DNA from: a virus
DNA length: 37,081 bases
UHGV virus genome: UHGV-0136052
Direction: 5' to 3' (one strand)
Under the pieces are notes generated by a model, which was not told the DNA's origin, ran no database searches, and saw only the letters and a program-made list of their open reading frames with translations. A program made the position numbers and the translations under genes. Positions 2,645 through 30,637 of the stretch are shown piece after piece (within the stretch, counting starts at the first letter, position 1; each line of letters starts with the position of its first letter).

Positions 2645-2989
2645 CCTGTTTGAAGATTTAGATATTGAAGAAAACGGAATGACTGCAGACAACGATGCAA
2701 TTGTTTTGAAAAATAACCTTCTATTCATTTAAAAACCATGCAACATGAACAAAACGATTATTTTACAATACTCAAGAATCTTGATCAACAGGCATATTAT
2801 TTATGCGCTTAATGCGTCACTTACAAAAATAAAAACAAGTAATACCTTTATTCCTATCGTCCATGATTTTTATTTTCAAACATTATTAAATAACAATTCC
2901 TATTTATAATATCTGTCATTTAATTTTCTCCAAATACAAGGAATCGCCGCAGCATTGCCGCAGTGATGTATTATTAATCAAAAAGATAT

Positions 2990-3002
2990 GACCACCGTGG
3001 TC
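2990..3002. promoter_or_regulatory. Perfect palindrome GACCACCGTGGTC, putative Mnt-type operator about 65 bp upstream of mnt
   Basis: Half-sites resemble recalled P22 Omnt core (GTCCACGGTGGAC); position upstream of mnt start. Confidence 0.4.
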
Positions 3003-3066
3003 TTATTGAGGATGCAACCAACAGATAATAAGATGCCGATCCACTCACAAAAGCGAGGCATCAAGA

Positions 3067-27400: not shown

Positions 27401-27432
27401 GCCCTTTTTCAGGGCGGGGATGTATAAGAGCG
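27401..27432 (-). promoter_or_regulatory. nutR: boxA CGCTCTTA and boxB GCCCTGAAAAAGGGC (read on minus strand)
   Basis: Exact lambda-type boxA/boxB motifs between cro and cII. Confidence 0.8.
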
Positions 27433-27440
27433 GGAATGTC

Positions 27441-28793
<1,353 letters not shown>

Positions 28794-28955: not shown

Positions 28956-28986
28956 TGCTCTTAAAAATTAAGCCCTGAAGAAGGGC
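28956..28986 (+). promoter_or_regulatory. nutL: boxA-like TGCTCTTA and boxB GCCCTGAAGAAGGGC
   Basis: Matches recalled lambda nutL almost base for base. Confidence 0.8.
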
Positions 28987-29096: not shown

Positions 29097-29423
29097 ATGG
29101 ATGCACAAACACGCCGCCGCGAACGTCGCGCAGAGAAACAGGCTCAATGGAGAGCAGCAAATCCACTGTTGGTTGGGGTAAGCGCAAAACCAGTTAACCG
29201 CCCTATTCTCTCGCTGAATCGCAAACCGAAATCACGAGTAGAAAGCGCACTGAATCCAATAGACCTTACAGTGCTGGCTGAATACCACGAACAGATTGAA
29301 AGCAACCTGCAACGTATTGAGCGAAAGAATCAGCGCACATGGTACAGCAAGCCACGCAGTGAAATGGGTGTGACTTGTGTCGGTCACCAGAAAATGAAAT
29401 TAGGCAGCAAACCACTTATTTGA
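29097..29423 (+). CDS. N: Antiterminator N, lambda-type
   Basis: From internal Met: MDAQTRRRERRAEKQAQWRAANPLLVGVSAKPVNRPILSLNRKPKSRVESALNPIDLTVLAEYH... matches recalled lambda N. Confidence 0.92.
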   Translation: MDAQTRRRERRAEKQAQWRAANPLLVGVSAKPVNRPILSLNRKPKSRVESALNPIDLTVLAEYHEQIESNLQRIERKNQRTWYSKPRSEMGVTCVGHQKMKLGSKPLI

Positions 29424-29431
29424 GGTGATAT

Positions 29432-29518
29432 ATGGAAGAAGAATTTGAAGAGTTCGAAGAGCATCCGCAGGATGTGATGGAACAATACCAGGACTATCCG
29501 TATGACTACGACTATTGA
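29432..29518 (+). CDS. Very acidic 28-aa peptide (MEEEFEEFEEHPQDVMEQYQDYPYDYDY), possibly lambda orf28 equivalent
   Basis: Short ORF between N and ral overlapping ral start; too short for the ORF track. Confidence 0.3.
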   Translation: MEEEFEEFEEHPQDVMEQYQDYPYDYDY

Positions 29519-29702
29519 TAAAAATCAATGGTGTGGACAATTCAAACGATGCAATGGATGCAAGCTGCAATCGGAATGCATGGTTAAGCCTGAAGAAATG
29601 TTTCCTGTAATGGAAGATGGGAAATATGTCGATAAATGGGCAATACGAACGACGGCAATGATTGCCAGAGAACTTGACAAACAGAAAAACAAGGCTGCCT
29701 GA
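29502..29702 (+). CDS. ral: Restriction alleviation protein Ral
   Basis: MTTTIDKNQWCGQFKRCNGCKLQSECMVKPEEMFPVMEDGKYVDKWAIRTTAMIAREL... matches recalled lambda Ral, 66 aa. Confidence 0.9.
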   Translation: MTTTIDKNQWCGQFKRCNGCKLQSECMVKPEEMFPVMEDGKYVDKWAIRTTAMIARELDKQKNKAA

Positions 29703-29838
29703 TGGTGGCCTTTATTTTTGGCATAAACAACAGAATAAACACTGCACTGTGTATTCATTCCAACGAGTGAATACACGGAGCAATGTCGCTCGTAACTAAA
29801 CAGGAGCCGACTTGTTCTGATTATTGGAAATCTTCTTT

Positions 29839-29865
29839 GCCCTCCAATGTGAGGGCGTTTTTTTT
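29839..29865 (+). terminator. Rho-independent terminator (GCCCTC-CAATGT-GAGGGC followed by T8)
   Basis: Perfect 6-bp GC-rich stem plus 8 T, just upstream of RBS of next gene. Confidence 0.75.
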
Positions 29866-29878
29866 GACGGAGTAAACG

Positions 29879-30127
29879 ATGATAAAAACTGATTACCCTG
29901 CAGAGCTTAAACAAAAAGTAATAACAGCAATTAAATGCTCTTTTATCTCATGTCGTACAGATGAAGAACGATATGTCGTTGAGTGTGCAATTGTCGAGTT
30001 TCTCACAGCGATGGAATTTACCGCTGCAGAATCAATAGATGTATTAAAGCAATCAGACGGAAATGATATTGAAACGGATGATGTTATTGACCGACTAATA
30101 AAATCATTCGAAGAAGAAATAGAGTAG
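29879..30127 (+). CDS. Small acidic hypothetical protein (82 aa)
   Basis: ORF with GGAG RBS after terminator; acidic C-terminus DGNDIETDDVIDRLIKSFEEEIE; no family recognised. Confidence 0.55.
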   Translation: MIKTDYPAELKQKVITAIKCSFISCRTDEERYVVECAIVEFLTAMEFTAAESIDVLKQSDGNDIETDDVIDRLIKSFEEEIE

Positions 30128-30210
30128 CCGCCTGAGCGCGGCTTTACCGCATACCAATAATGCTTCACGAGAGGCATTTTCGTTATGCAATCAAATATAA
30201 GGAGTTACCC

Positions 30211-30345
30211 ATGATGCACTTTCAGCTCGCGGGTAGCGGCGTCATGTCCGCTTTCTACCCGCACGAATCTGAATTATCACGCCGAGTTAAACAATTAATC
30301 AGAGCAGCAAAGAAACAACTGGAGGCGTTATGCGCAATGAAATAG
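30211..30345 (+). CDS. cIII: CIII-like small protein (44 aa)
   Basis: AAGGAG RBS; amphipathic ESELSRRVKQLIRAAKKQLE resembles CIII central helix; position before kil. Confidence 0.4.
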   Translation: MMHFQLAGSGVMSAFYPHESELSRRVKQLIRAAKKQLEALCAMK

Positions 30346-30482
30346 CCATTAATCACCAGATGCTTCGTGCTGCACAGAACAAAGCAGTAATAGCCCGATT
30401 TATTGGTGATTCAAAAATGTGGCTTGAAGCAAATAAAGCGATGAAATCAGCTATCAACCTTCCATGGTATCGCAGGAAATGA
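30330..30482 (+). CDS. kil: Kil-like small protein (50 aa)
   Basis: Motif IARFIGDSKMW resembles recalled lambda Kil (ATFIGDEKMF); position after cIII-like gene. Confidence 0.45.
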   Translation: MRNEIAINHQMLRAAQNKAVIARFIGDSKMWLEANKAMKSAINLPWYRRK

Positions 30483-30637
30483 GTTTTACAGATAACTGGT
30501 CAGACGAAGAATTCATTCGTCAGATGAAAGAATTAATCGGTAACGAAGGAGATATGCATGCCACTTGCAACCACAGTGAAGGAGAGCAAGTTACAGAGAC
30601 GCATGTACACGCAGAAAGCTCTCTGGTATCGCCATAA
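30479..30637 (+). CDS. Small hypothetical protein (52 aa), ATGA-coupled to kil-like gene
   Basis: Short ORF filling gap before erf. Confidence 0.3.
   Translation: MSFTDNWSDEEFIRQMKELIGNEGDMHATCNHSEGEQVTETHVHAESSLVSP

What the first reader, a model, noticed from the sequence alone, without database searches (positions are those of the whole stretch)
29879..30127. Acidic 82-aa protein with its own terminator-RBS unit just downstream of ral
A strong terminator (GCCCTC-N6-GAGGGC plus T8) is followed 14 nt later by a small ORF encoding a highly acidic protein. Its position beside Ral in the N-dependent early-left operon is where anti-restriction and other counter-defence genes cluster in lambdoid phages. 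I do not recognise the family; a DNA-mimic or other anti-defence role is a speculative hypothesis.
Basis: inference. Interest (0 to 1): 0.4.

Follow-up and report, generated by a model that had tools for sequence, protein, structure and literature searches.

The report
Acidic accessory gene replacing lambda ea10
This is a real but uncharacterised small acidic phage gene that sits in the variable slot where phage lambda carries ea10; the terminator in front of it belongs to a conserved phage small RNA, and the database label "anti-restriction protein" traces to an annotation slip, not to any experiment.

Summary
The ORF (29879-30127, 82 aa, pI 4.27, net charge -11), the hairpin plus T8, and the GGAG ribosome-binding site are all present as described. 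The terminator is not the ORF's own. It is lambda terminator tL2a, the 3' end of the Hfq-bound small RNA LPR1/PreS. That backbone segment occurs in 2242 of 5426 complete E. coli genomes; the ORF occurs in only 58.

Homology to lambda breaks right after the T-run and resumes at the stem-loop at the stop codon. The ORF is therefore an exact allelic replacement of ea10, in a hypervariable slot that also holds a P22 gene 17 homologue, three other protein families, or nothing.

The protein is predicted as a four-helix bundle (pLDDT 88). Its family is tiny: 32 representatives among 1.84 billion proteins, all acidic and all in early phage operons. It has no Pfam family and no informative structural relative.

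The PHROG/RefSeq name "anti-restriction protein" most likely derives from a mislabel in phage ECP1. The identical protein was gene 194 in the Silas et al. accessory-gene screen and gave no reported phenotype, including against EcoKI. It is silent in the Kapi1 lysogen.

Most likely it is an N-dependent early protein that inhibits a narrow host or rival-element target. That function is unproven.

The parts
28972..28986 (+). nutL boxB (exact lambda sequence GCCCTGAAGAAGGGC), preceded by a boxA-like TGCTCTTA. It loads N onto the leftward transcript.
   Evidence: 0 matches expected by chance
29097..29423 (+). Antiterminator N (lambda type)
   Evidence: Pfam N36 E = 1.6e-25, phrog_271
29502..29702 (+). 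ral, restriction alleviation. This is the genuine Ral.
   Evidence: Pfam PF11058 E = 2.3e-47, full length
29778..29865 (+). Homologue of the lambda sRNA LPR1/PreS. The ~88-nt extent is inferred from the lambda northern-blot size, counted back from the T-run. It differs from lambda at about 2 positions.
   Evidence: Alignment by eye with lambda; paper 10.1101/2024.10.31.621285; folds at -27.4 kcal/mol, z = -3.3
29838..29865 (+). Intrinsic terminator equivalent to lambda tL2a (hairpin plus T8). It is the 3' end of LPR1 and the left boundary of the variable slot.
   Evidence: present in 2242/5426 E. coli genomes
29866..30125 (+). Swapped-in cassette (RBS plus ORF) that replaces lambda ea10. GC is 35% against 47% for the window.
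   Evidence: Homology to lambda stops after the T-run and resumes at GCCGCCTGAG; GC; megablast finds it in 58/5426 genomes
29869..29872 (+). Shine-Dalgarno GGAG, 6 nt before the ATG
29879..30127 (+). 82-aa acidic four-helix-bundle protein (phrog_14587; identical to HK446 gp36, Kapi1_017, ECP1_057 and WP_000597940.1)
30126..30143 (+). Stem-loop AGCCGC-N6-GCGGCT overlapping the stop codon. It is the right boundary of the cassette and is shared with the end of lambda ea10.
   Evidence: -10.3 kcal/mol; not distinguishable from shuffles, z = -1.2
30159..30185 (+). Terminator-like hairpin plus T-rich tail upstream of cIII, conserved with lambda
   Evidence: -8.5 kcal/mol, z = -2.5
30211..30345 (+). 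cIII (HK97/HK022 type). It is the constant right-hand neighbour.
   Evidence: Pfam PF08134 E = 2e-30

Best explanation
Shown:
- The ORF is a genuine delayed-early gene of the pL operon of a P22-like/lambdoid prophage.
- It is one of several interchangeable cassettes that fill the slot between terminator tL2a (the 3' end of the sRNA LPR1/PreS) and cIII, which is the slot lambda fills with ea10.
- It has no predicted promoter of its own.
- The identical gene was not detected in RNA-seq of the Kapi1 lysogen.

Inferred from lambda biology:
- It can be translated only from transcripts that read through tL2a, which requires N loaded at nutL.
- It is therefore made for a short period early in lytic growth, together with Ral, cIII, Kil and the recombination proteins.

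Inferred (mechanism):
- The product is a compact 9.4-kDa four-helix bundle. Its acidic residues are conserved at specific positions on helices 2-4 (E30, E40, E51, D54, D67, D71).
- It most likely acts stoichiometrically, binding a basic, probably nucleic-acid-binding, surface of a single host or rival-element protein and blocking it. That would make it a narrow-spectrum host-takeover or counter-defence inhibitor.
- It is not Ral, and it is not a broad Ocr/ArdA-type inhibitor of type I restriction.
For: Anatomy:
- Junctions with lambda lie exactly at the tL2a T-run and at the stop-codon stem-loop.
- The flank occurs in 2242 E. coli genomes, the cassette in 58.
- Among 112 loci with at least 700 nt downstream of the tL2a 26-mer (112 includes the window and the reference phage/prophage loci), the first ORF in the slot is Ea10, this ORF, a P22 gp17 homologue, phrog_8967, phrog_13002, a 322-aa protein, or cIII with no insert.

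Expression:
- No promoter-like site lies between ral and the ATG.
- An exact nutL boxB and a lambda-type N are present.
- tL2a is the 3' end of LPR1 (10.1101/2024.10.31.621285).
- Kapi1_017 was not detected in lysogen RNA-seq, and neither were cIII and kil (PMC12922286).

Protein:
- AlphaFold2 gives pLDDT 88.3, pTM 0.77 and four helices. BFVD models of the Skatevirus homologues superpose at TM 0.77-0.88.
- In the 25 full-length family members examined plus the window protein, net charge is -7 to -20; the one outlier (P0040, -3) has a divergent C-terminus.
- Acidic residues are conserved at specific positions.

Context across phage types:
- It is the first gene of an early operon in Skateviruses.
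- It lies directly upstream of RecT in a metagenomic phage.
- It lies upstream of cIII, RecT and YqaJ in another lambdoid.

Guilt by position:
- P22 protein 17, in the same slot, releases Fels-1 exclusion.
- orf184, from the ral accessory region, triggers gop-beta-cII.
Against: - There is no functional evidence. The identical protein (UDP0194) was among the 200 accessory genes screened in about 20 E. coli hosts against T2-T7, P1 and lambda. It is absent from the list of genes with a lethality or host-sensitising phenotype.
- The fold is a generic four-helix bundle with no informative relative.
- Acidity alone is weak evidence, since many small phage proteins are acidic.
- The target is unknown.
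- The screen used non-lambdoid challenge phages and a limited set of hosts, so its negative result is not decisive either way.
Confidence: 0.4

Rival explanations
1. It is a phage-internal accessory factor, not a defence-related one. For example, it could modulate the neighbouring recombination or lysogeny functions (cIII, Kil, Arf/Erf, RecT) or, in Skateviruses, the ParB-like protein that its two paralogues flank.
For: In lambdoid phages it always sits in the operon that carries the recombination genes, and once lies directly before RecT. Skateviruses have two paralogues, gp63 and gp60, bracketing a ParB-like gene. No defence-related phenotype appeared in the Silas screen.
Against: The recombination module next to it varies (Erf, RecT, RecT plus YqaJ), so there is no fixed partner gene. 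The slot can be empty or hold unrelated proteins, which fits an optional, host-directed function. The distribution is sporadic: 58 genomes against 2242 for the flank.
Confidence: 0.2
2. It inhibits RecBCD or another host exonuclease, as a functional analogue of lambda Gam, T7 gp5.9 or P22 Abc2, protecting linear phage DNA ends early in infection.
For: It is small, acidic and helical, like gp5.9 and Gam (established knowledge). In one phage it occupies the gam position directly upstream of RecT with no other candidate there. It is early-expressed in both temperate and Skatevirus-type phages.
Confidence: 0.12
3. It is an anti-restriction protein, as the PHROG and RefSeq names say: an Ocr/ArdA-like DNA mimic that blocks type I restriction-modification enzymes.
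For: phrog_14587 is labelled 'anti-restriction protein' and RefSeq records repeat that name. The protein has a strong negative charge and lies next to ral.
Against: - The only functional name supplied by a depositor is ECP1's 'antirestriction protein ral'. The ORF has no similarity to Ral (E = 17), and ECP1 carries only a broken ral next to it.
- The other RefSeq product names in HK446 are verbatim PHROG labels, and PGAP calls the protein hypothetical.
- In the MG1655/lambda screen only ardA, ral and ocr were hits.
- Ocr and ArdA do not appear in the listed fold matches.
Confidence: 0.05
4. It is a moron: a lysogenic-conversion gene with its own transcription unit, expressed from the prophage.
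For: GC is low (35% against 47%), and hairpins sit on both sides of it.
Against: No promoter-like site lies upstream. Only 13 nt separate the terminator from the ATG. The upstream terminator is backbone tL2a. Kapi1_017 was not detected in the lysogen transcriptome.
Confidence: 0.03

Closest known systems
Lambda Ea10 (Pfam DUF2528)
   Same: It occupies exactly the same genomic slot, bounded by the same tL2a T-run and the same stem-loop at the stop codon. It is also acidic (net -14, pI 4.28), also pL/N-dependent, and also of unknown function.
   Different: There is no sequence relationship: the ORF does not hit DUF2528, whereas Ea10 hits it at 1.8e-47. The sizes differ (82 against 122 aa). It is a positional analogue, not a homologue.
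P22 gene 17 protein (Pfam PF17420, GP17)
   Same: A gp17 homologue is another alternative occupant of the slot after ral and tL2a. It is acidic (net -14). P22 protein 17 is reported to release exclusion imposed by another prophage (PMC4837284 citing Susskind & Botstein 1978).
   Different: It is an unrelated sequence family, with no PF17420 hit for the ORF. No exclusion-escape phenotype is known for the ORF.
Ocr / ArdA DNA-mimic anti-restriction proteins
   Same: They are small, very acidic, helical, early-expressed phage or plasmid proteins.
   Different: There is no sequence match, and no fold match in the listed results. The ORF was not a hit against EcoKI in the pool where ocr and ardA were. 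It also did not trigger the abortive systems that sense Ocr and ArdA.
Ral (Pfam PF11058)
   Same: It is the adjacent gene in the same operon, and the ORF carries Ral's name in the ECP1 GenBank record.
   Different: The sequences are unrelated (BLASTP E = 17). Ral is basic (pI 8.8), whereas the ORF has pI 4.3.
N-terminal four-helix cap of B12 photoreceptors (AerR, CarH; B12-binding_2)

Membership tests
phrog_14587 (the family itself, whatever its label) | Full-length match to the family HMM | tested here: met
   E = 2.2e-48, residues 1-82 against profile 1-82 of 82
Ral (PF11058) | Sequence similarity to Ral, or a match to the Pfam model | tested here: not met
   No PF11058 hit for the ORF. BLASTP against the window's own Ral gives E = 17.
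Ocr/ArdA-type DNA mimic | Strongly acidic surface | tested here: met
   Net -11, pI 4.27. The aligned full-length family members are net -7 to -20, apart from one C-terminally divergent outlier at -3.
Ocr/ArdA-type DNA mimic | Fold resembling Ocr or ArdA (an elongated, B-DNA-like array of carboxylates, dimeric) | tested here: not met
Ocr/ArdA-type DNA mimic | Relieves type I restriction (EcoKI) in vivo | not testable with these tools
   Literature only. The identical protein is UDP0194 in the Silas et al. pool. The MG1655/lambda screen log lists only ardA, ral and ocr as hits in three replicates. Per-gene barcode counts are not held.
Colicin DNase immunity proteins (Im7/Im9) | Significant sequence or fold match to Im proteins | tested here: not met
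Lambda Ea10 / DUF2528 | Match to PF10800 | tested here: not met
   The ORF has no hit, while Ea10 scores 1.8e-47. Only the genomic position is shared.
P22 gp17 / PF17420 | Match to PF17420 | tested here: not met
   The ORF has no hit. The 103-aa occupant of the same slot scores 7.3e-56.
Moron (autonomous prophage-expressed unit) | Own promoter, and expression in the lysogen | tested here: not met
   No promoter-like site at 29703-29878. Kapi1_017 was not detected in lysogen RNA-seq (PMC12922286).
Known anti-phage defence proteins (PADLOC) | Match to any PADLOC model | tested here: not met
   0 families at E <= 1

The most novel reading that the evidence does not exclude
The 82-aa protein founds a new family of narrow-spectrum counter-defence inhibitors. 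Its conserved acidic face on a four-helix bundle would block one specific host or prophage-encoded immune or exclusion protein not represented in the published screen. More broadly, the tL2a-cIII slot would be a dedicated exchange site for acidic inhibitor cassettes (Ea10, gp17, this ORF, phrog_8967, phrog_13002), each aimed at a different defence.
Probability: 0.25. Interest if true: 0.6.

Novelty: new member of a known kind. Interest (0 to 1): 0.3.

Why it matters
If the protein does disarm a host defence, it would add a new inhibitor family. It would also mark the ea10 slot as a predictable place to look for such inhibitors in thousands of lambdoid prophages.

Two practical points hold whatever the function turns out to be:
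- The name "anti-restriction protein" now attached to this family in PHROGs and RefSeq has no experimental basis. It appears to descend from one mislabelled GenBank record, so it should not be used as evidence.
- The "terminator" next to the gene is the end of the LPR1/PreS small RNA. Anyone engineering or deleting this region needs to know that.

Tried and rejected
- Pfam, NCBIfam and PADLOC gave no meaningful hits. The Pfam DUF366 hit (E = 0.017, 15 bits against a 29.9-bit cut-off) and the NCBIfam sigma-factor hit (E = 0.07) were rejected as noise.
- The word-indexed homologue search found only near-identical copies. I had to seed a second search with the Skatevirus homologue and then run a profile search.
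- Foldseek against AFDB50 could not be run because the library was unavailable.
- Rfam gave only sub-threshold hits to MicX, RyhB and SraG. These reflect the Hfq-type terminator and not family membership, and LPR1 was not matched by any Rfam family at E <= 1.
- A literature search for the protein's accessions and PHROG id found nothing. A four-term search for P22 gene 17 and Fels-1 also found nothing; a looser search gave a secondary citation.
- Per-gene fitness values for UDP0194 are not in the held supplements, so I could not confirm that the construct was well represented in every pool.
- The antisense 94-aa ORF (29893-30177, minus strand) was considered and rejected. Protein-level conservation and the confident model support the plus-strand frame.
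- My first attempt to delimit the slot with a fixed right-flank motif failed for 67 of the 126 matched places. I switched to classifying by the first ORF.

Full report
**1. What is in the sequence**

The ORF runs from ATG 29879 to the stop at 30125-30127 and encodes 82 aa. It has 20 D/E and 9 K/R, net charge -11, pI 4.27 and a mass of 9.4 kDa. Its GC content is 35% against 47% for the window. A GGAG lies 6 nt upstream of the ATG.

The hairpin GCCCTC-N6-GAGGGC with a T8 tail ends at 29865 and folds at -11.4 kcal/mol, z = -3.3. Upstream are a lambda-type N (Pfam N36, 1.6e-25) and a genuine Ral (PF11058, 2.3e-47). Downstream are cIII, Kil, a small Arf-like ORF, Erf and SSB.

An exact lambda nutL boxB (GCCCTGAAGAAGGGC) with a boxA-like element lies at 28972-28986 upstream of N. 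An exact nutR boxB lies on the other strand at 27401-27415. The window corresponds to a P22-like prophage of the kind found in E. coli strain A3.

**2. The terminator is not the ORF's own**

I aligned the region with lambda (NC_001416) and with phages HK446, Kapi1 and ECP1. The 160-odd bases after the ral stop codon, including the hairpin and T-run, are lambda's own ral-ea10 intergenic region, with only a couple of base differences.

Homology to lambda stops immediately after the T-run. Lambda continues 'atctgtgaggatatgaacagATG' into ea10, whereas the window continues 'gacggagtaaacgATG'. Homology resumes at the stem-loop GCCGCCTGAG(C/T)GCGG, which overlaps the stop codon of both genes, and then runs on into cIII. 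The ORF plus its RBS (about 29866-30125) is thus an exact allelic replacement of ea10.

Silverman et al. (bioRxiv 10.1101/2024.10.31.621285) showed the following for lambda:
- The ral-ea10 intergenic region encodes the Hfq-bound sRNA LPR1 (PreS), about 88 nt and processed to about 68 nt.
- Its GC-rich hairpin and poly-U tail are the early-left terminator tL2a.
- The sRNA is made in lytic growth and is conserved in about 2,500 genomes.

In agreement, the left flank (window 29700 to about 29865) occurs in 2242 of 5426 complete E. coli genomes. The stretch that includes the ORF occurs in 56, and the cassette alone in 58, always chromosomal.

**3. A hypervariable slot**

I scanned IMG/VR for a 26-mer of LPR1/tL2a. 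I then classified the first ORF after the terminator in 112 loci that had at least 700 nt downstream; that number includes the window and the reference phage and prophage loci already fetched. The occupants were:
- Ea10 in about 42 loci (DUF2528).
- This ORF in 8 loci (counting the window, the three reference phages and the E. coli A3 prophage).
- A homologue of P22 gene 17 in 4 loci (PF17420, 7e-56).
- A 138-aa protein (phrog_8967) in 4 loci.
- A 106-aa protein (phrog_13002) in 1 locus.
- A 322-aa protein in 7-8 loci.
- One HNH-like ORF.
- Nothing, with cIII following directly.
- In about 25 further loci the first ORF is a 55-aa reading frame that I did not resolve. It may be non-coding sequence or a different arrangement.

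All the small alternatives are strongly acidic, with net charge -11 to -17.

P22 protein 17 is described as releasing exclusion imposed by Fels-1 (PMC4837284 citing Susskind & Botstein 1978). At least one occupant of the slot therefore has a documented counter-exclusion role.

The left-hand neighbour of the cassette varies: ral here, a SieB-like gene in HK446, an Nmad5-domain gene in Kapi1, and orf28 plus a broken ral in ECP1. The right-hand neighbour is always cIII.

**4. Expression**

No promoter-like site lies between ral and the ATG, and only 13 nt separate the T-run from the start codon.

By the established lambda paradigm, translation of this ORF requires transcripts that read through tL2a, that is, N-modified polymerase coming from pL. 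This step is inferred.

Independent experimental support comes from RNA-seq of the Kapi1 lysogen. There the identical gene (Kapi1_017), together with cIII and kil, was not detected above threshold (PMC12922286). The gene is therefore not a prophage-expressed moron.

**5. The protein and its family**

Pfam, NCBIfam and PADLOC give nothing meaningful.

A profile search of 1.84 billion representative proteins returned only 32 hits at E <= 0.001, all 42-100 aa; most are 68-89 aa and a few are fragments.

In the 26-sequence alignment of full-length members (including the window protein), net charge is -7 to -20; the only exception is one member with a divergent C-terminus. Acidity is conserved at specific positions, namely E30, E40, E51, D54, D67 and D71 on helices 2-4. 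The hydrophobic core positions and C25 are also conserved.

AlphaFold2 with a 17-sequence alignment gives a confident four-helix bundle: pLDDT 88.3, pTM 0.77, helices at 8-23, 28-44, 49-58 and 64-81. Independently built BFVD models of the Skatevirus homologues superpose at TM 0.77-0.88.

No informative structural relative was found:
- Foldseek against PDB finds nothing significant (best E = 0.66).
- A weak profile hit to colicin immunity protein Im7 (E = 0.2-0.7) was not borne out structurally.

Genomic contexts outside the lambdoids are all early:
- In Skatevirus-type siphophages of Salmonella, Klebsiella and E. coli it is the first gene of an early operon. A second paralogue lies 1.3 kb downstream, and the two flank a ParB-like gene.
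- In a metagenomic phage it is the first gene of the leftward operon, directly before RecT.
- In another lambdoid it lies before cIII, RecT and YqaJ.

**6. Where the name "anti-restriction protein" comes from**

PHROGs labels phrog_14587 'anti-restriction protein', and RefSeq phage records repeat it. The other RefSeq product names in HK446 ('CIII anti-termination', 'Kil protein for bacterial septation inhibition', 'recombinase') are verbatim PHROG labels.

The original GenBank records say 'hypothetical protein', with one exception: ECP1 calls it 'antirestriction protein ral'. The ORF has no similarity to Ral (E = 17). ECP1 carries only lambda orf28 and a disrupted ral immediately upstream. PGAP calls the protein hypothetical in all E. 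coli genomes listed.

The functional label therefore most probably descends from one misassigned name. This derivation is my inference, since I could not inspect the PHROG curation record.

**7. Existing experimental data**

The identical protein (AFH20664.1, HK446) is entry UDP0194 in Supplementary File 3 of Silas et al. (bioRxiv 10.1101/2023.04.06.535777). That file lists the 200 accessory genes synthesised and screened in MG1655, C990 and about 18 ECOR strains against lambda vir, T2-T7 and P1. The entry numbering matches the orf numbers used in the text: UDP0001 is ocr (orf1), UDP0002 is arn (orf2), and UDP0184 is orf184.

The protein is not among the genes listed as producing any phenotype (orf7, 24, 48, 63, 92, 98, 116, 126, 143, 145, 148, 184), nor among the named counter-defence hits. 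In the MG1655/lambda experiment, which reports EcoKI restriction, the log records 'ardA, ral, ocr are hits' in all three replicates.

This is negative evidence against a broad Ocr/ArdA-like activity. It is not proof of absence of function:
- Per-gene counts are not available to me.
- The challenge phages were not lambdoid temperate phages.
- The host set was limited.

**8. Interpretation**

Shown:
- The gene is real.
- It is an ea10-slot cassette.
- It has no predicted promoter of its own and is silent in a lysogen.
- Its product is predicted to be an acidic four-helix bundle, and it belongs to a very small family restricted to early phage operons.

Inferred:
- The sporadic distribution, low GC, interchangeability with other acidic proteins (one with a counter-exclusion role), early timing and position-specific acidic conservation fit one reading best. 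That reading is a stoichiometric inhibitor that binds a basic surface on one particular host or rival-element protein. I give this about 0.4.
- Alternatives are a phage-internal accessory role (0.2), a RecBCD or nuclease inhibitor (0.12), a type I anti-restriction DNA mimic (0.05), a moron (0.03), and other or unknown for the remainder.

**9. Novelty and score**

The sequence is already in the databases and has already been flagged and screened as a candidate accessory gene. The slot, the terminator and the sRNA are all known. What is new here:
- The exact definition of the cassette boundaries.
- The recognition that the slot exchanges several acidic proteins.
- The tracing of an unsupported functional label.

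I rate it as a new, uncharacterised member of a known kind (lambdoid early-left accessory genes), with interest 0.3. The most novel reading not excluded is a new narrow-spectrum counter-defence family in a dedicated exchange slot for acidic inhibitors. I give that about 0.25 probability and an interest of about 0.6 if true.

Noticed in passing
window 29778-29865 (+): A near-identical copy of the lambda Hfq-dependent sRNA LPR1/PreS, with tL2a as its terminator, lies between ral and the ORF. It differs from lambda only in one loop base and in the T-tail. Rfam 15 returned no family match for it at E <= 1 (only sub-threshold MicX and RyhB hits).
   Followed up: yes
L001 (phage ECP1, KY979108.1) 2768-3016; RefSeq NC_019714, NC_049926, NC_054643 and others: Annotation error chain. 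ECP1 labels the 82-aa ORF 'antirestriction protein ral', although the ORF is unrelated to Ral and ECP1 has only a broken ral. PHROG 14587 and many RefSeq phage records now call the family 'anti-restriction protein'.
   Followed up: yes
IMG/VR loci L012-L131, downstream of the tL2a 26-mer: Every small alternative occupant of the tL2a-cIII slot is strongly acidic (net -11 to -17, pI 4.1-4.5): Ea10, the P22 gp17 homologue, phrog_8967 and phrog_13002. So is orf184 of Silas et al., from the ral accessory region. The reason for this shared acidity is unexplained.
   Followed up: partly
L003 (Salmonella phage SeSz-2) 4001-4261 and 5263-5490: Skatevirus-type phages carry two diverged paralogues of this family (86 aa and 74-75 aa, about 25% identical). 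They flank a ParB-like gene in the same early operon.
   Followed up: partly
window 30160-30345 versus 30211-30345 (+): The cIII start is annotated inconsistently. HK446 uses the 61-aa ORF starting at the equivalent of 30160, while PGAP uses the 44-aa form. The AAGGAG just upstream of the ATG at 30211, and the conserved hairpin at 30159-30178 overlapping the longer start, favour the short form.
   Followed up: no
window 28391-28793 (+), between the cI-like repressor and nutL: At the position of lambda rexAB there is an ORF with an N-terminal hydrophobic segment resembling a signal or lipoprotein leader ([20 protein letters not shown]...). It is homologous to Sf6 gene 38 and HK446 gp39. It could be a prophage-expressed exclusion or envelope protein.
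   Followed up: no
window 30464-30637 (+): The 57-aa ORF between kil and erf is named 'recombinase' by PHROG 2123 and RefSeq. It is far too small to be a recombinase and only weakly resembles the Erf cofactor Arf (phrog_2445, E = 0.06). This is probably another over-named family.
   Followed up: no
window 27401-27415 (-) and 28972-28986 (+): Exact lambda nutR and nutL boxB sequences are present in a phage with P22-type structural genes and a non-lambda (Sf6/HK620-like) immunity region. This illustrates module mosaicism.
   Followed up: partly
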